DNA of 52,037 nt from a virus. Lineage: Duplodnaviria; Caudoviricetes. The notes beneath the pieces are model-generated. The model was not told where the DNA came from, did no database searches, and saw nothing but the letters and a program-made list of their open reading frames with translations. Shown piece after piece: positions 6,711 through 47,738 of this stretch. How positions within the stretch are numbered: position 1 is the stretch's first letter; each line of letters starts with the position of its first letter. The translations under genes and the position numbers were made by a program. Location: positions 1 through 52,037 of the IMG/VR virus record IMGVR_UViG_3300036828_000332, one strand, 5' to 3'.

Positions 6711-7997
6711 TCATTGAATAGACACCGCCGTTCCGATCCGGGCCGCGACATCCGCAGGGAATGCCGTGCGGCCCCGAAGCAGGTTTTCAAGATGCGACAT
6801 CTGGGAAATCGTAAGCGCATCGACCGGCTGCATGTAGACCCTTGCTGTCATGTCCGGCTTAGAGTGCCCGAGCTGCGCCTGCACTGCCTTCAGGTCGAGG
6901 CCTACGAATTGGGAGATTGTCGCGAAGGATCGCCGCAGCATCTGGAAGTCGATATCCTGAACGGGAATTTTAGCGCGTATTGCGGCTGGCCGCAGCATAC
7001 AGCGGACAATATTGGAATAGATTGCCGGTCGGCCATCACGCTGCCCCCGGAATAAGAGATCCTTCTGGCCGATACCTTCCGTGGCAATCCAGGCATGGAC
7101 CTCGCCCGCCAGTTCGGGCGGAAGATGGATAAACCGGGACCTTCCGGTCTTGGTGCTCTTGACGTTTCTCCAGCGGTCGAATGCCTTGTTGATATGTATC
7201 CAGGTAGGGCCGACATCTGCCACCGTGACCGCCATCAATTCGGCGGGCCGGGTTGCGCCAAGGATCGATACCCAAACGATCAGCCGGTCCCGGATGTTCA
7301 ACTCATTGAGCAAAGCCGGAAGGTGCTGCGGCGGGAACACACTCTTATCCGGCTTGATCGCCTGTTTGGGAACCCTCAGCCGGACAGTCACCGAGCGCGC
7401 CGGATTCCGCGGTGTCATTCCCCGCTCCAAGGCGAGGTCGAAGATAGCGCGAAGGTTCGTTAGGACGTGTGTGGCATACGAGGTACTGACGCCCTTCTTC
7501 AAGGTCTTTTTTCGCAGATCCTGGCGATGAGCCAGCGATCCCATGAACCGCTTGAGATCCTCGGGGAGAATCGAATCAACTGCCCGCTGGCCCAACGCGG
7601 GAATGATTGAGTTATTGAAGATTGAGCGCGTGTTGCGGCGCGTGCCTTCCTCCCAGTCAACTTCCCGCATGGTCAGATAGTCTTCGCAAAGGTCTGCTAC
7701 CTTCGCGCGCCCAGTGGTGGCTACCGCTTGCCCGGCTTGCCGCCGCAACCATTCACGGTGGATATCCTCTGCTTGTCCCTTGGTGGGAATCTCTACCTTG
7801 GTTCCGATGATGCGCTTGCGTTGCTGCCGGCGCGTAGTGCCATCCGGCTTCGCCACAATGACGTGGTAGAAACCCTTCCACTTCTTTTCGCGCTTGCCTA
7901 CGAGTTCTACCCATCCGTTCTGATGGCTCTCGCGGTTGCGATGCGCCGCGTTGTAGCTGGCGAGATCGGGAAGAGGTGTTGCGATCTTGTTGCTCAC
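6711..7997 (-). CDS. int: Tyrosine integrase
   Basis: TRPAEL, LRRSFAT, QLGHS and VYMQ catalytic motifs; 428 aa with N-terminal arm-binding region. Confidence 0.95.
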   Translation of the reverse strand: MSNKIATPLPDLASYNAAHRNRESHQNGWVELVGKREKKWKGFYHVIVAKPDGTTRRQQRKRIIGTKVEIPTKGQAEDIHREWLRRQAGQAVATTGRAKVADLCEDYLTMREVDWEEGTRRNTRSIFNNSIIPALGQRAVDSILPEDLKRFMGSLAHRQDLRKKTLKKGVSTSYATHVLTNLRAIFDLALERGMTPRNPARSVTVRLRVPKQAIKPDKSVFPPQHLPALLNELNIRDRLIVWVSILGATRPAELMAVTVADVGPTWIHINKAFDRWRNVKSTKTGRSRFIHLPPELAGEVHAWIATEGIGQKDLLFRGQRDGRPAIYSNIVRCMLRPAAIRAKIPVQDIDFQMLRRSFATISQFVGLDLKAVQAQLGHSKPDMTARVYMQPVDALTISQMSHLENLLRGRTAFPADVAARIGTAVSIQ

Positions 7998-41848: not shown

Positions 41849-44800
41849 TTACTCCAGAAAACTGTCCGTGTTGGCCCCGTGTGACCGGAACTCCGGCATG
41901 GGGGTTTGGCCCTTCGAACCCAGGCCGGTTTTCCCGCCCACAGCGGCACCCGCCCGCAGAGCGGCCTCGATATCACCCCAACGCTTATCGGTAAAGACCT
42001 CCAGGCGCAGCACCGCCGCCGCCGCGCGGGCATAGATCCGGCAGTTACCCGCGACAAATACTTGCCCGTTCCGCCTGCAGATCAATGTGCCGTTCGGCAC
42101 GGTGGCGCAATAAACCTTTCCATCATAGGCAACGGACTTTCCGATAAACCCCCGCTGCCCATTGCCGCCGCCGTCGAGGGAGGCTTTTTTCGTGTGGGCA
42201 TTCTCATGAACGTGATACTGATCTTTGGTGTTATCGCCAGAACGCCCGCGAATACTGTAGGCAGCGGCTTTGCGGATATGGATCCGCGGTGCGCAGCCAA
42301 GTTTGATAAAGAGTTCCTGGTAATCATCGGCCAAGTCTTTGCAGATGGTGGCAATCGCCCGGCACCCGTTATTCTGATTCCATCCATCCCCGGCGATGGC
42401 TGCATCTATGAAGGCCGAGATTACGTCCATACCGGACTTCTTGATCCACAGCGGAACTCGCCGCGCTTCTTGAAGGCGACCCCATTGAATAACCTCATTG
42501 TGAAGTTGTTTCGAAGTGCACGTGAATTTGTGGACACCTTCGTTCCAATTAAAGCGCCAAGGCAAGCGATCGAGCAGTTCCGCGATCACCTCGACATTCG
42601 CAGTCTTGGTCTGGGTAATCGATACGAGGCGCCGGTGCGAGCCTTCATAGTGATTGGTAATCGCCGAACCTTCAGTTATCCACCAGCCGTAGAAACTCGC
42701 CAGATCGACGGCCTTTACGTTCCGCGACGGCTCGATCTCCAGCCCGGAATCATCCTTCGAACTGGCCGGTATTGAGATGCAACACGGCCCAGTTGCGGAC
42801 CATCGTCCCGTCAGCTTGATTTGATGACGTTGCGTCAGGTCCTTGGCGAGCGTAATAGTCGGCGTTGCGGCAATGACGGCGTTCCGGTTCGGCAGGTAAG
42901 TCACCATGCGGTGATTCGGCGTTACCAAAATGTCGAGACGCCTGCCCGTAAGGTAAATCATTTCGCCTGAATGGTTTCGGCTGATGAGATCTGATGGCTT
43001 TTGAAACTCGATTGCATCGCTTTCAAGTTCCACAGTTGCTAATTTCTGGTTGGACACATTCGCAAACGGAGACCAGCCAGCATCGGTAAGCACTTCGGTT
43101 TCGCCATCGAAACAGTCGAGCGCTTCGTTGCGGTCGCGGCGCTTTTCCCATTTTGTGGTCGTGCGCCCAGCTAAGGTGTGCGTGATCAATTGCTCGGCGC
43201 ATAGTTGGTCGAAGAATTCCTTACCGTAGCCGGGAAAGTGGCAGTAGCCCGCCGGCCAAATCTCTCCGGCCGCGAGGTCCGGGACATTCAGGCGCAACGC
43301 GCGGTAGAGTTCCTCTTTGCCGATGGAGGTATTCACCGGCCACAGGCGCACGCCGCCGCGCACGATGCGGCCTCCTGCCGTGACATCCATGAACGACGGT
43401 GCGCCCACAAAGGCCGAGATGTGGGAGTGGGTTTCGCCCTTTACCGCCATCACGCTTTGCGATCCCATGCGCCTTACCCATTCGTAGACGCGCATGGTGT
43501 TGAACCCGGAATCGACGGCCAGCTTCTTAATGCGCAGCGCGCCGCCGTAAAAACTCGGGAATTCCTCATCTAGCACTTCCGCCAGCTTGGCCCACACCTC
43601 GGGCTGGTTGGTGTTGCCGTCGAACACGCGGTAATCCACGGACCAGGATTCGCGGTTGCGGCCCCAGGCAACCACCTCACATTCGATGCGGTTGACCTGC
43701 ACATCGACCCCGGCTGTGAGCACGAGCCCACCCTCGGGCACCTCGCCCATCGCATAGAGTTCGCGCCGCTCGTAGAGACGGTCTACATCCGGCACTTCGC
43801 CCTGATCGGCCCATGGCACACCGAGGACGGTGTTGTAGAAGGCCTGTAACTTCTCGGGAGACACCATGCTCTTATCCCGCATCCGCATGATCTGGGTCCA
43901 GGAGAGCCAGCCGACCGGCGAGTAATAGCTGGAGAGGTGGAAGCCCTTGGTAACGCCATCGCCCAAGCCGAGAGAACGCCACTCGCCCGCGGCTAACATG
44001 ATGGTCTTCTCGTGGTCGAAGATCTCCTTTTCGCAGTCCTGGCAGCGATAGGCCGCGCGGTGCGGCATCGCTGCGGACCATTGCAATTGCTCCGGCAGCA
44101 AGGTGATGAAGACGCCACAGCGCGGGCACGGCACGAAGTAGTAGCACTGATCCGACTGGCTGAAGAACGTTTCAATGCGGCTACGGCCTGCAATCGTGGG
44201 TGTCGACGCGATGAGGATTTTCTTGCGCCGGAAATTCGAGGTGCGCGCTATGGCCAGATCGCAGGGCTCGCCCTCACGATCCACGTTCGCCGGATAGGCG
44301 TCCACCTCATCGAGAAACAGATAGCGTGCCGCCATGGAACGCAGGCCCTTGGCGCTGTTGGCTCCCGCCAGCACCAGAATGCCGCCCAGGAACTCTTTGG
44401 CCAGAATGGTATTGCCGGAGTCGCGCTCCTTCGGAGAACGCACCAAGGTGCTCAGAATCGGACAGTCTTCGATCAAGGGACCGATGCGCTGCTTCGAGTT
44501 GCGCTTGGCCATGGTTTCGGTTGGTTGCACCACCAGCATGGGACCGGGCGCTAAATGGATCACATAGCCCATCCAGTTGATCCCGGCTTCGGTGGCGCCA
44601 ACCTGCGAGCCTTTCATGAACACCACCCGTTCGCAGGGCGATTCCGGCATCAGCGCGTCCATGATCTCGCGCAGGTAGGGCGTGCGGCTGGTGCGCCACA
44701 TACCGGGCTCCGGCGATGAGCGCGTCGTCAGAACCCGGTACTGATCCGCCCATTCGCTGATGGCCAGCTTCGGGTCGGGCCGCGCACCCATGCGGCAGGC

Positions 44801-44872
44801 TTTGACTGTAGCTTCATAGGCGTTGGCGAGACCAGGGAGGGAAGCGTGCAGCGTGTTCCCTGGCGTGATCAT
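41849..44872 (-). CDS. terL: Terminase large subunit (lambda gpA family), intein-interrupted
   Basis: RTPYLREI, KGSQVGAT, LFLDEVD, STPT, GVDVQ and RNEALDC motifs; 650 aa after intein removal. Confidence 0.96.
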   Translation of the reverse strand: MITPGNTLHASLPGLANAYEATVKACRMGARPDPKLAISEWADQYRVLTTRSSPEPGMWRTSRTPYLREIMDALMPESPCERVVFMKGSQVGATEAGINWMGYVIHLAPGPMLVVQPTETMAKRNSKQRIGPLIEDCPILSTLVRSPKERDSGNTILAKEFLGGILVLAGANSAKGLRSMAARYLFLDEVDAYPANVDREGEPCDLAIARTSNFRRKKILIASTPTIAGRSRIETFFSQSDQCYYFVPCPRCGVFITLLPEQLQWSAAMPHRAAYRCQDCEKEIFDHEKTIMLAAGEWRSLGLGDGVTKGFHLSSYYSPVGWLSWTQIMRMRDKSMVSPEKLQAFYNTVLGVPWADQGEVPDVDRLYERRELYAMGEVPEGGLVLTAGVDVQVNRIECEVVAWGRNRESWSVDYRVFDGNTNQPEVWAKLAEVLDEEFPSFYGGALRIKKLAVDSGFNTMRVYEWVRRMGSQSVMAVKGETHSHISAFVGAPSFMDVTAGGRIVRGGVRLWPVNTSIGKEELYRALRLNVPDLAAGEIWPAGYCHFPGYGKEFFDQLCAEQLITHTLAGRTTTKWEKRRDRNEALDCFDGETEVLTDAGWSPFANVSNQKLATVELESDAIEFQKPSDLISRNHSGEMIYLTGRRLDILVTPNHRMVTYLPNRNAVIAATPTITLAKDLTQRHQIKLTGRWSATGPCCISIPASSKDDSGLEIEPSRNVKAVDLASFYGWWITEGSAITNHYEGSHRRLVSITQTKTANVEVIAELLDRLPWRFNWNEGVHKFTCTSKQLHNEVIQWGRLQEARRVPLWIKKSGMDVISAFIDAAIAGDGWNQNNGCRAIATICKDLADDYQELFIKLGCAPRIHIRKAAAYSIRGRSGDNTKDQYHVHENAHTKKASLDGGGNGQRGFIGKSVAYDGKVYCATVPNGTLICRRNGQVFVAGNCRIYARAAAAVLRLEVFTDKRWGDIEAALRAGAAVGGKTGLGSKGQTPMPEFRSHGANTDSFLE
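42044..43114 (-). mobile_element. Intein (357 aa) with LAGLIDADG-type homing endonuclease
   Basis: N-terminal CFDGETEVLT, block B VTPNH, GWWITEGS and AAIAGDG motifs, C-terminal VYCATVP...AGN/C. Confidence 0.93.
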
Positions 44873-45423
44873 GCGGCCAGCTTTCCTTCCGAGTAGGCGT
44901 CGAACACCTTGCGCAGCTCATCTTCGAGCAACTGCTGGCACGCGCCGATGTTCAATTCCCCTGCCAGCAGCGGAGCGATGCGCGACGGGATGTTGAAACA
45001 CGCCTCGCGGATGGTGCGGAATTCCTGGAAGCGGGCGTTCTCGACATCCGCGGTGGGCGTGAGATTGCCGACGCGTTCCTCGTAGCGGGTCTTCTTCAGC
45101 AGCGCCTCGTAAACCTGCGTCGATGCCCTGGCGCGGGCATAGGCTGTCGAGCGTGTTTCGTCGGGCTTAGGGATATCGGCGTTGGGGATTTCCGGCAGCG
45201 TGCCGCTGAATTCCACCGGCTTTCCACCGCTGCCGCCGGACGCGGATCGGTTGTTGTGGCCCTTCTCGTGGTGCGTGGTGGCGTGGAACTCCGCCACGGC
45301 TTGATCGAGGTCGTAGAGGCCGTCCGCGCCGGGTGTAATGCGTCCCGCTTGCATGGCAATATGGACCGCCATGCGGCTGCGCTTGAGCGCCTTGGCGAGT
45401 TCGATTTCTCCCACGCGGGCCAT
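44869..45423 (-). CDS. terS: Terminase small subunit (Nu1-like)
   Basis: N-terminal HTH, coiled coil, NIPSRIAPLLA; coupled to terL. Confidence 0.85.
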   Translation of the reverse strand: MARVGEIELAKALKRSRMAVHIAMQAGRITPGADGLYDLDQAVAEFHATTHHEKGHNNRSASGGSGGKPVEFSGTLPEIPNADIPKPDETRSTAYARARASTQVYEALLKKTRYEERVGNLTPTADVENARFQEFRTIREACFNIPSRIAPLLAGELNIGACQQLLEDELRKVFDAYSEGKLAA

Positions 45424-45475
45424 CGCGCTGATTCTAACGTGGAAAACTCTCTTTCACCAAATGCTAAATTCAAGC

Positions 45476-46114
45476 ATGAGCGACGCGATGCCTCTCGACA
45501 CCCAGACTTGGCCGGCAGATCAGGTCGAGCGCTGGCCGCTCTCGAAGCTGGTCCCCTATGCGCGCAATGCCCGCACACACTCCCAGGAACAGATCCGGCA
45601 GGTGGCCGCATCCATGCGCGAATGGGGTTGGACCATCCCGGTCCTGGCCGATGATCGGGGCGGCATCATCGCAGGACACTGTAGGGTGAGTGCTGCGGAG
45701 ATAAATGGCTACGACGAAGCGCCCGTAATGGTAGCCCGCGGCTGGTCGGATGCTAAGAAACGGGCTTACATCATTGCCGATAACAAGCTGAGTCTCAATG
45801 CCGGATGGGACGAAGAACTGCTGGGTCTGGAATTGCTAGAGCTGCGCGAGAGCGGCGTCGATCTTGGATTGACCGGCTTTGCGGGCTCGGAGTTGGCAGA
45901 CCTGCTGCGCGAAGTCGAAGAGGCCCAGCCTCCGGAGTTGCCCACGGGAGAGCGCACGCCATACCGGCAGATCACCTTTACTCTGCACGATGAGCAGGCG
46001 GAATTGGTCGCGCTGGCCATCGCGGCAGCCAAAGCCAAGGGACCGTTCTCGCTGGAATTGAATGAGAACGTCAACGGCAATGCCCTGGCGCGGATCTGCG
46101 AGGCGTACTTATGA
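45476..46114 (+). CDS. ParB/Srx-like N-terminal domain protein
   Basis: LVPYARNARTHS, IIAGHCR and IADNKL motifs; C-terminal ITFTLHDEQ...NGNALARICE. Confidence 0.88.
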   Translation: MSDAMPLDTQTWPADQVERWPLSKLVPYARNARTHSQEQIRQVAASMREWGWTIPVLADDRGGIIAGHCRVSAAEINGYDEAPVMVARGWSDAKKRAYIIADNKLSLNAGWDEELLGLELLELRESGVDLGLTGFAGSELADLLREVEEAQPPELPTGERTPYRQITFTLHDEQAELVALAIAAAKAKGPFSLELNENVNGNALARICEAYL

Positions 46115-46263
46115 ATCTCTATATCGTGCTAATGCGGTCCTGGGACGGCGGTTTTCGGGTCGAGGCTATTTTCGAAACCCAGGAGTTGGCGGAGAAGCGT
46201 GGCCGGGAATTGGGAAATGAATCCAAAGTAGTGATGCTAGAAGCGGTTCTGTTCAAGTTATGA
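46111..46263 (+). CDS. Small hypothetical protein (50 aa, below the track cutoff)
   Basis: MNLYIVLMRSWDGG...; ATGA overlaps with both neighbours. Confidence 0.65.
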   Translation: MNLYIVLMRSWDGGFRVEAIFETQELAEKRGRELGNESKVVMLEAVLFKL

Positions 46264-47048
46264 CCACAGCCAAGGATCTGCGCGTTGCCGTGATCGGATC
46301 CGCCGATGCCCACGCCTTCATGCGCAAGACGCACTATTCCCATAAGAGCGTACAGAATTCGCAACTACACCTCGGGGTCTTTCTCGGGACACGCCTCGAA
46401 GGCGCCATGCAATTCGGACCGCCGCTGGATCGCCGGAAGTTGATCACGCTGGTTCGCGATACGCCTTGGACCGGCTTCCTGGAATTGAACCGCATGGCGT
46501 TCACCGACAACCTGCCGCGCAATTCGGAAAGCCGCGCCATCGCGGTCGCCATGCGCCTGCTGAAGAAACACTTCCCGCAGATTCAGTGGATCGTCAGTTT
46601 TGCCGACGCCACGCAATGCGGGGATGGTACGATTTACCGCGCCTCGGGATTCGTGCTTACCGCGATCCGCGCGAACACCACCATCTGGGGAGGACCAGCC
46701 GGCGAGGTGATTACCAACATCGGCATCCGCACCAGCGGCCAAGCCATCCAGTCGTTTGCCCATGTGGGCGGCAAAGACGTGTACCGGGGCGGAGCCAGCA
46801 TGACGCACTTCCGCGCGGCGGGCTTCCGTCCGCTGAAAGGCTTCCAGCTTCGCTATCTCTATTTCCTTCACCCTACGGCCAGGGAACGGCTGACCGTGCC
46901 GGTGATACCATATTCGGCAATTCGCACGGCAGGCGCTACAATGGCTCGCGGTGTGCGTCCCAGCGTCGGAAGTATCCCGGTAGACACAGCCGCGTTCCCC
47001 GCGGAAGAGGGCGGTTCGACTCCGACCCCGACGCTCCAAGATCCATAG
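46260..47048 (+). CDS. mom: Mom-family (GNAT-fold) DNA adenine modification enzyme
   Basis: HYSH, ELNRMAF, PRNSESRAI, IVSFAD and GTIYRASGF motifs characteristic of Mu Mom homologues. Confidence 0.88.
   Translation: MTTAKDLRVAVIGSADAHAFMRKTHYSHKSVQNSQLHLGVFLGTRLEGAMQFGPPLDRRKLITLVRDTPWTGFLELNRMAFTDNLPRNSESRAIAVAMRLLKKHFPQIQWIVSFADATQCGDGTIYRASGFVLTAIRANTTIWGGPAGEVITNIGIRTSGQAIQSFAHVGGKDVYRGGASMTHFRAAGFRPLKGFQLRYLYFLHPTARERLTVPVIPYSAIRTAGATMARGVRPSVGSIPVDTAAFPAEEGGSTPTPTLQDP
46963..47038 (+). tRNA. tRNA-Gly(UCC)-like element, non-canonical, inside the mom 3' end
   Basis: 76 nt; perfect 7-bp acceptor GCGTCGG/CCGACGC, U73-CCA, TTCGACT T-loop, GG in the D-loop, anticodon TCC. Confidence 0.8.
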
Positions 47049-47081
47049 CCGCGCGTACTATGTAACCTAAAGGAGCATTCG

Positions 47082-47738
47082 ATGCCTGCATTGAATATCA
47101 CCGAAACGCTTTCTCTCACGCACGCTGTCGTAGCCACCAGCCCGGCGTCCCCCAGCAGCGCCAAAACCGTAAGCAGCGGCCCGGTCAAGATCAACCAGAT
47201 CGGCAACAATGTCTCCAGCGGCATTCAAATCGTGACGACCACTGCCGCGGTCATCAATATCGGAGCAGTGTCGGGAGGCGCACTGGGCCGCTTCGCCATC
47301 AAAAACCTGGACGGCGCGAATGACCTGAGCGTGTTGCCGGGACTGGCCGGACCGGCGTTCCTCACATTGCTGCCCGGAGAAATGGCGCAAGGCCGCTTCG
47401 ACGCCAGCGTTACGGCTCCAGCGGTGCTGACGAGCGCCGCAGCGGGTAGTTCGATTACCGCCATAGCCGTGGCGACCGGTGGCGCCGGCTATACGGTTGC
47501 GCCAACCGTTACCCTGGCCGGCGCAGGCGCAGGCACTGGAGCGGCATTCACAGTGAACCTGACAGGAGGCGCGGTTAGCTCTGTCACTGTGACTGCCGGA
47601 GGGTCCGGGTATCCCAGTAGCGGCGTAACCGCGACATTTACAGGTGGCACCTTTACCACCGCCGCTACGGCTGGCGCGGTCACGGTAACAACGCCAGCCA
47701 CGACGGTGTTGATGGAATACATCGTCTGTGCGGACTAG
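47082..47738 (+). CDS. Thr/Ala/Gly-rich beta protein, virion- or surface-protein-like
   Basis: AAGGAG RBS; two GG(A/S)GY repeats. Confidence 0.75.

What the first reader, a model, noticed from the sequence alone, without database searches (positions are those of the whole stretch)
46963..47038. tRNA-Gly-like RNA hidden in the 3' end of the mom gene: candidate dedicated glycyl donor for DNA hypermodification
Seen: exactly 76 nt on the sense strand within the last 29 codons (peptide SVGSIPVDTAAFPAEEGGSTPTPTLQ). It has a perfect acceptor stem GCGTCGG/CCGACGC, U73, encoded CCA, a D-arm with GG, anticodon TCC and a TTCGACT T-loop. Known: G1-C72, C2-G71, G3-C70, U73, C35 and C36 are bacterial GlyRS identity elements, and all are present. 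Its deviations fall on translation features: A8 instead of U8, a G32-C38 pair, C37 instead of a purine, a G27-A43 mismatch, and an extra A in the T-stem where EF-Tu binds. Staphylococci use non-proteinogenic tRNA-Gly for cell-wall bridges. The Mom product is a glycinamide adduct, and I recall recent work reporting Gly-tRNA-Gly as the Mu Mom donor (verify). Inference: the phage encodes enzyme and private co-substrate in one overlapping locus, charged by host GlyRS but shielded from the ribosome.
Basis: partly seen in the sequence, partly recalled or inferred. Interest (0 to 1): 0.95.

Follow-up and report, generated by a model that had tools for sequence, protein, structure and literature searches.

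The report
Mom gene's private glycine tRNA look-alike
The last codons of this phage's Mom (DNA-disguising) gene also spell a conserved but deformed glycine-tRNA look-alike that accompanies almost every close Mom relative and is probably the enzyme's own glycine carrier, though nobody has tested this at the bench.

Summary
Window 46963-47038 (+) lies inside the last 28 codons of a Mom-family gene. It forms a 76-nt cloverleaf with G1-C72, C2-G71, G3-C70, U73, encoded CCA, a UCC loop and a T stem with a bulged A.

Default ARAGORN and Rfam reject it. Relaxed ARAGORN calls tRNA-Gly(tcc) at exactly these coordinates.

It is a real, conserved RNA gene. A covariance model finds it beside 155 of 161 untruncated Mom loci (45-93% protein identity, many phyla). 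All four helices covary. The element persists whether Mom's stop codon lies after it (106), inside it (23) or before it (24). It is read in all three frames and twice lies antisense.

GlyRS identity nucleotides are kept. Decoding features are not: U33 in 27 of 138, A34 in 53 of 138.

Mu Mom is known to use Gly-tRNAGly (Silva 2026), and Mu lacks the element.

Best reading (about 0.65): a GlyRS-charged, non-ribosomal glycyl donor for Mom. No expression or charging data exist.

A tRNA-Gly-like 'pseudo-tRNA' in Dehalococcoides mom homologues was printed in 2011 without a function. This scan has already noted the same idea on other DNA (54 notes, at least 39 genomes).

The parts
46260..47048 (+). 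Mom-family gene (262 codons). The catalytic domain spans residues 6-219. The tail, residues 229-262, is predicted disordered.
   Evidence: Pfam PF25680, E 6.5e-51. PDB 8bv8 (Mu Mom), E 7.7e-29. 37% identity to Mu Mom, with R78 and S91 aligned to Mu R111 and S124; both are invariant in A1. AlphaFold2 pLDDT is 31-34 over residues 229-262.
46963..47038 (+). tRNA-Gly-like RNA element, long (76-nt) class, overlapping Mom codons 235-260.
   Evidence: Sequence. ARAGORN -ps calls tRNA-Gly(tcc). Model R1 scores 76.6 bits, E 3.5e-16, the only hit in the window. Covariation.
46963..46969 (+). Acceptor stem, 5' strand (G1 C2 G3 U4 C5 G6 G7).
   Evidence: Pairs 7 of 7 with 47028-47034. Pairs 4-7 covary across the family, with 58 distinct complementary combinations in 138 sequences.
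46972..46987 (+). D arm (stem GTAT/ACAC with one A-C mismatch; loop CCCGGTAG with GG).
   Evidence: D-stem columns 10-13/22-25 are 84% paired, and 3 of 4 pairs show double changes, in an alignment that was not selected on this stem.
46989..47005 (+). Anticodon-like arm. The loop is GTTCCCC, with T34 C35 C36 at 46996-46998.
   Evidence: C35 C36 are kept in at least 110 of 138 distinct elements by a naive register, and most of the remainder show CC shifted by 1-2 nt. The stem covaries.
47010..47027 (+). T arm GGCGG-TTCGACT-CCG(A)CC, with a bulged A at 47025.
   Evidence: A bulged base is present in all 138 distinct elements (A 126, T 10, G 2). All 5 T-stem pairs show double changes in A3.
47028..47038 (+). 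Acceptor stem 3' strand (47028-47034), discriminator U73 (47035) and encoded CCA (47036-47038).
   Evidence: U73 in 137 of 138 and CCA in 108 of 138 distinct elements.
45338..46114 (+). ParB N-terminal-domain gene just upstream, on the same strand. A recurrent neighbour of this Mom clade; its role is unknown.
   Evidence: PHROG ParB-like, E 9.4e-48. Pfam ParB_N is weak, E 0.0027. The same order is seen in Psychrobacter phage vB_PmaS_Y8A and in the loci.
46914..46942 (+). Weak sigma-70-like promoter match (TCGGCA-17-TACAAT) ending 21 nt before the element. It may be chance.
   Evidence: 9 of 12 matches. Two such sites were found in 3.2 kb against 0.8 expected. Conservation was not tested.

Best explanation
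The 76 nt at 46963-47038 are a gene for a non-canonical tRNA-Gly-like RNA that travels with one large clade of phage and prophage Mom genes.

Proposed mechanism:
1. The RNA is transcribed on the mom strand, probably as part of the ParB-orf-mom message. (Inferred.)
2. It is cut out like a tRNA: RNase P at G1, then 3' trimming to the encoded CCA. Where CCA is not encoded, cleavage after U73 and CCA addition would do the same. (Inferred.)
3. The host glycyl-tRNA synthetase charges it. It keeps the bacterial glycine identity set G1-C72, C2-G71, G3-C70, U73, C35 and C36. (Conservation is shown; charging is inferred.)
4. It is a poor partner for EF-Tu and the ribosome. A base is bulged inside the first three T-stem pairs, the anticodon loop is closed to 5 nt, and across the family U33, purine 37, the TTC of the T loop and often the whole D arm are dispensable. 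(Sequence is shown; the consequence is inferred.)
5. Mom takes the glycyl group from its 3' end and puts it on N6 of adenine in double-stranded DNA, giving the carbamoylmethyl adduct. (This chemistry is shown only for Mu Mom with host tRNAGly. Here it follows from homology, with both essential residues conserved.)

The overlap with the Mom reading frame is genome economy, not a requirement. The peptide it encodes is a disordered tail.
For: Family-wide presence:
- Model R1 finds the element beside 155 of 165 Mom loci, which is 155 of 161 loci not cut before the Mom stop. Of these, 153 are on the mom strand and 2 are antisense.
- No other tRNA is called by ARAGORN in any of these loci.

Structure (ungapped MAFFT alignment A2, 38 sequences):
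- 93.0% of cells are paired, against 72.7% in shuffles (0 of 500 reach the observed value) and 35.6-42.6% when partners are slid.
- 12 of 21 pairs have changes on both sides.
- The D and anticodon stems, which were not used to pick the sequences, are 84% and 83% paired.

Structure (model-fitted alignment A3, 74 distinct, mostly non-seed sequences):
- 97.7% paired, and 19 of 21 pairs have double changes.
- Only G1-C72 and C2-G71 never vary.

It is an RNA on the + strand: G-U pairs outnumber A-C pairs 25 to 3 in the acceptor and T stems, and 18 to 5 across A2.

It is not a peptide constraint:
- Mom's stop codon lies after the element in 106 cases, inside it in 23 and before it in 24.
- Among 96 distinct translated T arms, the frame is 0 in 71, 1 in 18 and 2 in 7, giving unrelated peptides.
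- Three of the 120 best homologues read the same DNA in another frame.
- The tail is predicted disordered.

It acts in trans:
- Some elements are separated from mom by another gene (L144, L146, L149, L153).
- Some follow a tandem pair of mom genes (L151, L154, L158).
- Two are antisense (L155, L159).
- Tandem copies have spacers of 1, 4 and 28 nt (L010, L167, L164).

Identity set is kept while decoding features are lost (138 distinct elements):
- Positions 1-3/70-72 are GCG/CGC in 127. U73 is present in 137. CCA is encoded in 108.
- The anticodon is ACC in 53, TCC in 43 and CCC in 11.
- U33 is present in only 27. Positions 32-38 are pairable in 104. The T loop begins TTC in only 23.

Identity elements in the literature: G1C72, C2G71, C35, C36 and U73 (PMC10464925, abstract and passages).

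Enzyme:
- Mu Mom uses Gly-tRNAGly and rejects Gly-tRNAAla (PMC13219725).
- The window's Mom keeps R78 and S91, aligned to Mu R111 and S124.

Host tRNAGly genes in five genomes that carry the element are canonical and differ from the elements.

Precedent: staphylococcal non-proteogenic tRNAGly serve GNAT-fold Fem transferases. They have TGC or TGT instead of TTC in the T loop and weak EF-Tu binding set by the first three T-stem pairs (PMC7826273, passages).
Against: - There is no evidence that the RNA exists as a small processed species or is glycylated. No RNA run holds this DNA.
- The window's own sequence does not fold into the cloverleaf as its minimum-energy structure (z -0.61).
- Mu Mom works with all three host isoacceptors, and Mu has no element. 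A private donor is therefore not needed for the chemistry.
- L. plantarum GlyRS prefers a purine at position 4 and a pyrimidine at 69, and needs the whole L shape. The elements mostly have a pyrimidine at 4 (57 of 73 in A3). The short class lacks a D arm.
- In most lineages (106 of 155) the frame stays open through the element. The T arm is read in one frame in 71 of 96 cases, so some selection on translation through it, or on the peptide, is not excluded.
- Six loci with full flanks have no element within 1.5 kb.
- A3 is fitted to the model, so its pair counts lean towards the structure.
Confidence: 0.65

Rival explanations
1. A regulatory tRNA mimic. The RNA, free or still within the mom message, binds Mom (or GlyRS) as a decoy or operator. 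This would hold back a toxic enzyme or tie its synthesis to the tRNA charging state. It does not donate glycine.
For: - The element overlaps the mom ORF in 129 of 155 cases, so cutting it out would remove the stop codon from the message.
- Mu controls mom with Com (annotated). No Com-like protein was seen here: the 50-aa ORF 46111-46263 has no family hit.
- Mom discriminates tRNA bodies, so it could bind a mimic.
Against: - C35 and C36 lie far from the acceptor end that Silva et al. suggest Mom reads. Their conservation is best explained by GlyRS.
- Encoded CCA (108 of 138) and head-to-tail tandem copies look like genes for processed tRNAs.
- Elements separated from mom, or antisense to it, cannot act in cis.
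Confidence: 0.15
2. An anti-defence decoy or spare. The RNA soaks up, or replaces, host tRNAGly attacked by tRNA-targeting defence enzymes. Its link with mom would be only genomic.
For: tRNAGly is a target of toxic enzymes such as FaRel2 (seen only in the search listing and abstract). Phages are known to carry tRNAs (recalled).
Against: - The element is tied to one clade of Mom genes: 155 of 161 loci, and it is the only tRNA-like gene there.
- It is absent from 8 cultured phages with more distant Mom genes.
- It lacks decoding features, so it could not replace a tRNA in translation.
Confidence: 0.05
3. An ordinary phage tRNA-Gly used in translation.
For: The window's copy has U33, a TTC T loop and a UCC anticodon. 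Default ARAGORN accepts 6 of 155 elements as tRNA-Gly(tcc).
Against: - Default ARAGORN rejects 146 of 155.
- Across 138 distinct elements: A34 in 53, U33 in only 27, positions 32-38 pairable in 104.
- A bulged T-stem base is present in all 138.
- The short class has no D arm.
- The window's copy has C37 and A8.
Confidence: 0.04
4. A conserved C-terminal peptide motif (GGSTPTPTLQ) whose codons happen to look like a T arm, or a chance match, or an integration-site remnant of a host tRNA gene.
For: The peptide footprint is present in 115 of 120 homologues. The phage has a tyrosine integrase at 6711-7997.
Against: - Three reading frames are used and stops occur before the element.
- Paired positions about 60 nt apart show compensatory changes.
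- The tail is predicted disordered.
- The shared bulge and the non-host sequence rule out copies of host tRNAGly.
- The integrase is 39 kb away, and the element follows mom, not the integrase.
Confidence: 0.01

Closest known systems
tRNA-Gly-like 'pseudo-tRNA' embedded in the mom homologue of Dehalococcoides ssrA genomic islands (McMurdie et al., BMC Genomics 2011, PMC3146451; passages read)
   Same: A 76-bp conserved tRNA-Gly-like locus, with apparent anticodon DCC, inside a Mom homologue that follows a ParB-domain gene. It was seen in 16 islands and one marine fosmid. A Dehalococcoidia genome in my set (L120) carries an R1 match of 60.8 bits.
   Different: That paper gave it no function, because Mom's tRNA dependence was unknown then, and used it as a primer site. 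It places the locus in the first 150 bp of the gene as annotated there; here it is at the 3' end. I did not align the published sequences themselves, because the supplementary figure is closed.
Phage Mu Mom with host Gly-tRNAGly (Silva et al., Nat Commun 2026, PMC13219725; PDB 8bv8)
   Same: A homologous enzyme: 37% identity, with both essential residues conserved. The proposed donor chemistry is the same.
   Different: Mu has no element anywhere in its genome. It uses all three host isoacceptors and is regulated by Com. The word 'tRNA-like' does not occur in that paper's main text. Its supplements could not be seen.
Non-proteogenic tRNAGly of staphylococci feeding FmhB, FemA and FemB (Rietmeyer et al., NAR 2020/2021, PMC7826273)
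   Same: - Extra glycine tRNAs that are charged by GlyRS, bind EF-Tu poorly and serve GNAT-fold aminoacyl transferases outside translation.
- TGC or TGT replaces TTC in the T loop. In the Mom elements this holds for 53 of 138.
- The anticodon loop is narrowed.
   Different: - Those are chromosomal, stand-alone, full cloverleaf tRNAs of one bacterial genus, and their acceptor is peptidoglycan.
- They weaken EF-Tu binding through A-U pairs. The Mom elements have a G-C-rich T stem with a bulged base.
- The window's own copy keeps TTC.
- There is no evidence of common descent.
Aminoacylatable tRNA-like structures at the 3' ends of plant RNA virus genomes (recalled, not checked here)
   Same: A virus-encoded tRNA mimic that keeps synthetase identity elements and is not used for decoding.
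   Different: Those sit at the 3' terminus of an RNA genome, have pseudoknotted acceptor arms and serve replication or translation. This one is a plain cloverleaf gene in a DNA phage, tied to a DNA-modifying enzyme.
Ordinary phage-encoded tRNAs
   Same: A small RNA gene carried by a phage. For comparison, Corynebacterium phage Darwin has a canonical tRNA-Gly(tcc) in a tRNA cluster.
   Different: Canonical phage tRNAs pass default ARAGORN, sit in tRNA clusters and are not linked to mom. The Mom element fails default detection in 146 of 155 cases.

Membership tests
Canonical elongator tRNA-Gly | Detected by standard tRNA finders or by the Rfam tRNA models at their thresholds. | tested here: not met
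   ARAGORN default finds 0 genes. The best Rfam match is tRNA-Sec at 22.3 bits, below its gathering score of 47. Only ARAGORN -ps accepts the element.
Canonical elongator tRNA-Gly | U8, U33, purine 37, an open 7-nt anticodon loop and an uninterrupted 5-bp T stem. | tested here: not met
   The window has A8, C37, pairable G32-C38 and a bulged A at 47025. U33 is present. Across 138 distinct elements, U33 occurs in 27 and a bulge in 138.
Substrate of bacterial GlyRS (tRNAGly identity set) | G1-C72, C2-G71, (G3-C70), U73, C35 and C36. | tested here: met
   All are present in the window. Across 138 distinct elements: GCG/CGC in 127, U73 in 137, CC at 35-36 in at least 110. The identity set is taken from PMC10464925.
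Substrate of bacterial GlyRS (tRNAGly identity set) | Actually glycylated. | not testable with these tools
   This needs an in vitro charging assay or charged-tRNA sequencing. One caveat: L. plantarum GlyRS prefers purine 4 and pyrimidine 69, whereas the window has U4-A69.
   R1 scores 76.6 bits, E 3.5e-16. The element overlaps Mom codons 235-260. Note that the window was one of the 38 seed sequences of R1, so its own score is partly by construction. 117 non-seed loci match independently.
Mom family (PF25680), tRNA-dependent DNA glycyl transferase | Pfam domain, homology to the solved Mu Mom structure, and the essential residues R111 and S124. | tested here: met
   PF25680, E 6.5e-51. PDB 8bv8, E 7.7e-29. 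R78 and S91 align with Mu R111 and S124. The essentiality of those residues comes from the abstract of PMC13219725.
Mom family (PF25680), tRNA-dependent DNA glycyl transferase | Forms N6-carbamoylmethyl-adenine in DNA. | not testable with these tools
   This needs nucleoside LC-MS of DNA from cells expressing the gene.
Staphylococcal non-proteogenic tRNAGly | TGC or TGT in the T loop and a weak A-U combination at T-stem pairs 49-65, 50-64 and 51-63. | tested here: not met
   The window has TTC and G-C pairs plus a bulge. It may work like this family, but it is not a member. The family features are taken from PMC7826273.
Phage attachment site derived from a host tRNA gene | Identity to part of a host tRNA gene, and a position next to the integrase. 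| tested here: not met
   The elements differ from host tRNAGly in five genomes. The integrase at 6711-7997 is 39 kb away. The element tracks mom in 155 loci.

The most novel reading that the evidence does not exclude
A large clade of phage and prophage Mom enzymes has co-evolved with its own aminoacyl carrier. This would be a GlyRS-charged, ribosome-excluded mini-tRNA, usually written inside the enzyme's own reading frame, whose only job is to deliver glycine to DNA. It would be the first virus-encoded non-proteinogenic tRNA, and the first RNA co-substrate gene dedicated to a DNA modification. A bolder extension (about 0.15): cutting the RNA out of the message removes mom's stop codon, so donor production and Mom synthesis limit each other.
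Probability: 0.6. Interest if true: 0.9.

Novelty: new variant of a known kind. Interest (0 to 1): 0.82.

Why it matters
Mom was shown only recently to use charged tRNAGly to modify DNA. Why some phages would need more than the host's tRNA is an open and directly testable question.

If the element is the donor, it has four consequences:
- It shows that viruses can privatise an aminoacyl-tRNA pool away from EF-Tu, which is the same solution staphylococci found for cell-wall synthesis.
- It gives a natural minimal substrate of 67-76 nt, sometimes without a D arm, for dissecting what GlyRS and Mom each recognise.
- It is a clean case of one DNA stretch encoding both a protein tail and a structured RNA.
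- It gives annotators a marker (model R1) for a DNA-hypermodification system spread over many bacterial phyla. In the one annotated record I inspected that carries the element (Psychrobacter phage vB_PmaS_Y8A), no tRNA is annotated at its two copies, and default ARAGORN misses 146 of 155 elements.

A cultured phage with two copies, Psychrobacter phage vB_PmaS_Y8A, offers a bench system.

Tried and rejected
Thermodynamic folding of the single sequence gave no cloverleaf and no significant z-score. It was not used as support.

The Rfam scan of 46700-47300 gave no family above threshold.

DNA similarity to the phage collection found only a 103-nt stretch of the Psychrobacter phage mom gene.

My first regex-plus-stem scan found 105 of 166 sources (165 loci plus the window's own excerpt). 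It was too strict and gave one false hit (L165, 6 of 7 pairs). It was replaced by model R1.

My naive anticodon-hairpin finder puts about 28 of 138 loops in the wrong register. The figure of 110 of 138 with C35 C36 is therefore a lower bound, not an exact count.

Expression: the look-up of sequencing runs listed no RNA holder. The only full holder is a soil-metagenome DNA run that may be the source of the contig, and four others hold small shares. Read laying was therefore not used, and nothing about expression or habitat is claimed.

Attachment-site, peptide-motif and chance readings were considered and rejected (see the rival explanations).

Weak R1 matches in Methylophilales phage Melnitz-3 and Corynebacterium phage Darwin proved to be ordinary tRNA-Trp genes.

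A sensitive search of the six element-less loci gave only a 26-nt acceptor-like hairpin in L157 (E 0.09) and a doubtful match in L134 (E 0.41).

Not attempted:
- A separate model for the short (67-71 nt) class.
- R-scape-type statistics.
- A survey of all 7957 or more homologues.
- A comparison of CCA encoding with host phylum.

Searches for prior print of the functional link found only Silva et al. (2023 preprint and 2026 paper) and McMurdie 2011. Supplementary files of these papers are closed and might hold more, for example a conserved C-terminal motif in the Mom sequence network.
Full report
WHAT IS THERE

The window is a single 52,037-base virus record. It is a temperate tailed phage. It carries a tyrosine integrase (6711-7997, -), a DNA methylase, a YqaJ recombinase and a lambda-gpA-type large terminase, portal, protease and small terminase on the minus strand.

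From 45338 a plus-strand block follows: a ParB-N-domain gene (45338-46114), a 50-codon ORF (46111-46263) and a 262-codon ORF (46260-47048). The last ORF is a Mom-family protein:
- Pfam PF25680, E 6.5e-51, residues 6-219.
- 37% identity to Mu Mom.
- Homologous to the solved Mu Mom structure 8bv8, E 7.7e-29.
- R78 and S91 align with Mu R111 and S124, the residues Silva et al. report as essential (abstract). Both are invariant in my 15-sequence alignment A1.

THE OBSERVATION

- a perfect 7-bp acceptor stem
- T73 and an encoded CCA
- a D arm with GG
- an anticodon arm with TCC at 46996-46998
- a TTCGACT T loop
- a T stem with one extra A at 47025

Standard tools do not accept it. Default ARAGORN finds nothing in the window. 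Rfam gives only a sub-threshold tRNA-Sec match (22.3 bits, E 0.064). The single-sequence fold is not a cloverleaf and is not unusually stable (z -0.61).

Relaxed ARAGORN (-ps) makes one call in the whole window, tRNA-Gly(tcc) at 46963-47038. Twenty shuffled windows (1.04 Mb) gave two calls, neither of them Gly.

RELATIVES

A protein search found at least 7957 homologues with E of 1e-5 or better among 8000 scored. Of the 120 best:
- 115 carry the tail footprint [GD]GxxP[TI]xxL.
- 3 read the same DNA in another frame (P0052 and P0089 by pattern, P0002 by eye).
- 2 have neither (P0083, P0118).
- 5 carry the footprint twice.

I fetched 165 loci: 5 with the window's protein and 80 with alignment A1 from viral contigs, and 80 with A1 from prokaryotic genomes of many phyla. 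These are the best-scoring relatives (45-93% identity). They are not a random sample of the family.

Thirty-eight distinct 76-nt elements, the window's included, align without a single gap (A2). I picked them by a T-arm pattern and a 7/7 acceptor stem, so pairing in those two stems is partly by construction. The D and anticodon stems were not used for picking.

On A2 with the cloverleaf I wrote:
- 93.0% of cells pair, against 72.7% in shuffles (0 of 500 reach the observed value) and 35.6-42.6% when partners are slid.
- 12 of 21 pairs have changes on both sides.
- Acceptor pairs 4-7 each show four or more pair types.
- The unselected D and anticodon stems are 84% and 83% paired.

A covariance model built from A2 (R1) gave the following:
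- It hits the window once (76.6 bits, E 3.5e-16).
- It hits 153 of the 165 loci on the mom strand (155 hits, 137 distinct sequences) and 2 more antisense.
- Of the 10 loci without a hit, 4 are cut before the Mom stop (L044, L075, L108, L139).
- The other 6 have full flanks and nothing convincing even with filters off.
- The rate is therefore 155 of 161 untruncated loci.

On a model-fitted alignment of 74 distinct, mostly non-seed sequences (A3), 97.7% of cells pair. Nineteen of 21 pairs have double changes, and only G1-C72 and C2-G71 never vary. Slid controls give 38-45%. This alignment leans towards the structure.

RNA, NOT PEPTIDE OR DNA

Mom's stop codon lies after the element in 106 hits, inside it in 23 and before it in 24. 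One ORF runs off its locus, and one locus lacks my Mom motif.

Where the T arm is translated (96 distinct elements), it is read in frame 0 in 71, frame 1 in 18 and frame 2 in 7. The peptides are unrelated (GGSTPTP, RRSSTDP and AAEHHRP types). The stop follows a median of 16 nt after the element.

The tail of the window's protein (residues 229-262) has pLDDT of about 32.

G-U pairs outnumber A-C pairs 25 to 3 in the acceptor and T stems, and 18 to 5 in A2. This fits a structure formed by the plus-strand transcript.

The element can stand apart from mom:
- It lies after an intervening gene in L144, L146, L149 and L153.
- It follows two tandem mom genes in L151, L154 and L158.
- It is antisense in L155 and L159.
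- It occurs as tandem copies with 1-, 4- and 28-nt spacers in L010, L167 and L164.

WHAT IS CONSERVED AND WHAT IS NOT (138 distinct elements)

Conserved:
- 7/7 acceptor pairs in 136.
- Positions 1-3/70-72 are GCG/CGC in 127, GCG/TGC in 5 and GCC/GGC in 6.
- U73 in 137.
- CCA in 108. The others mostly have U-rich trailers.
- CC at 35-36 in at least 110.
- A bulged base in the 3' strand of the T stem in all 138 (A 126, T 10, G 2).

Not conserved:
- Position 34: the anticodon is ACC in 53, TCC in 43 and CCC in 11.
- U33 is present in only 27.
- Position 37 is A in 79 and C in 46.
- Positions 32-38 can pair in 104.
- The T loop starts TTC in only 23 (TGC 49, GGC 30).
- A short class of 67-71 nt has no D arm.

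Default ARAGORN accepts only 9 of 155 elements, 6 of them as Gly-tcc. It finds no other tRNA in any locus.

The conserved set is the published bacterial GlyRS identity set: G1C72, C2G71, C35, C36 and U73 (PMC10464925). The lost features are those needed for decoding (established tRNA knowledge).

Host tRNAGly genes in five genomes that carry elements are canonical and clearly different.

DISTRIBUTION

Phage Mu, Aeromonas phage pAEv1818 and Pseudomonas phage JD024 (30-37% identity to the window's Mom) have no element in their whole genomes.

Five further phages with more distant Mom-like genes also lack it: Melnitz-3, Darwin, DillTech15, vB_EfaS_159 and LP-031. Their only R1 matches are tRNA-Trp genes.

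Psychrobacter phage vB_PmaS_Y8A (53% identity) has two tandem elements directly after the Mom stop, and neither is annotated.

The element therefore marks one clade of Mom, usually preceded by a ParB-domain gene.

MECHANISM

Shown:
- The sequence, the covarying cloverleaf and the linkage to Mom.
- Retention of the GlyRS identity set and loss of decoding features.
- Conservation of Mom's essential residues.

Known from print:
- Mu Mom transfers glycine from Gly-tRNAGly to N6 of adenine in dsDNA.
- It needs the terminal ribo-A and rejects Gly-tRNAAla (PMC13219725).
- EF-Tu affinity for the tRNA body is set by the first three T-stem pairs.
- Staphylococci keep non-proteogenic tRNAGly, with TGC or TGT in the T loop, for Fem transferases (PMC7826273).

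Inferred: processing, glycylation, escape from EF-Tu and use by Mom.

I put this reading at 0.65. The main rival is a regulatory mimic, at 0.15.

Points against the main reading:
- No expression data exist.
- Mu needs no private donor.
- Most elements have a pyrimidine at position 4 (57 of 73 in A3), where L. plantarum GlyRS prefers a purine.
- The frame stays open through the element more often than indifference would predict.

NOVELTY

A tRNA-Gly-like 'pseudo-tRNA' inside the mom homologue of Dehalococcoides islands was printed in 2011, without a function (PMC3146451). That lead came from the scan's earlier notes.

My searches found no paper that links such an RNA to Mom's tRNA dependence. 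Supplements were closed.

The scan itself has noted the same idea on other DNA: 54 notes in at least 39 genomes. These notes are not independent evidence.

I class the finding as a new variant of a known kind, namely a dedicated non-proteinogenic tRNA. It is phage-borne, usually ORF-embedded, and serves a DNA modification.

Noticed in passing
window 41849-44872 (-): The large terminase is 1006 aa. The gpA ATPase and nuclease domains end at about residue 587. The remainder carries a LAGLIDADG-like hit and PHROG hits typical of intein-bearing proteins, so an intein or homing-endonuclease insertion is likely.
   Followed up: partly
window 45338-46114 (+); also L167 897-1508 and the loci: A ParB N-terminal-domain gene sits directly upstream of this Mom clade again and again, often overlapping its start. 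McMurdie 2011 lists the same order, ParB then Mom. It may be a third part of the system.
   Followed up: partly
L167 2162-2229 and 2234-2302 (Psychrobacter phage vB_PmaS_Y8A, OQ059336.1): A cultured phage carries two tandem short-class elements between the Mom stop and the small terminase gene. Neither is annotated. This is a ready bench system.
   Followed up: yes
L155 2217-2290 (-) and L159 2228-2296 (-): In two Clostridia-type loci the element is encoded antisense to the 3' end of mom.
   Followed up: partly
L151, L154, L158: Two Mom genes lie in tandem, followed by a single element. Bradyrhizobium sp. TZ2 has three element copies in one genome.
   Followed up: partly
alignment A3, columns 4 and 87: The elements mostly have a pyrimidine at position 4 (U-A 34, C-G 23 of 73). 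The host tRNAGly genes I looked at have G4. This may be a mark that tells Mom, or other enzymes, the private RNA from host tRNA.
   Followed up: no
window 46914-46942 (+): A weak promoter-like site ends 21 nt upstream of the element, inside mom. Its conservation was not checked.
   Followed up: no
window Mom residues 155-178: This segment has low model confidence and lies in the gapped part of the alignment with Mu Mom. It may be a clade-specific loop.
   Followed up: no
L157 1243-1268: One of the six element-less loci has only a 26-nt acceptor-stem-like hairpin (GCGCCCG...CGGGCGC followed by TC) upstream of mom. The match is weak, E 0.09.
   Followed up: no
L001 3698-3776: The closest relative (93% protein identity) has a 3-nt longer anticodon loop that still contains ACC. 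The loop size is therefore free, while CC is kept.
   Followed up: partly
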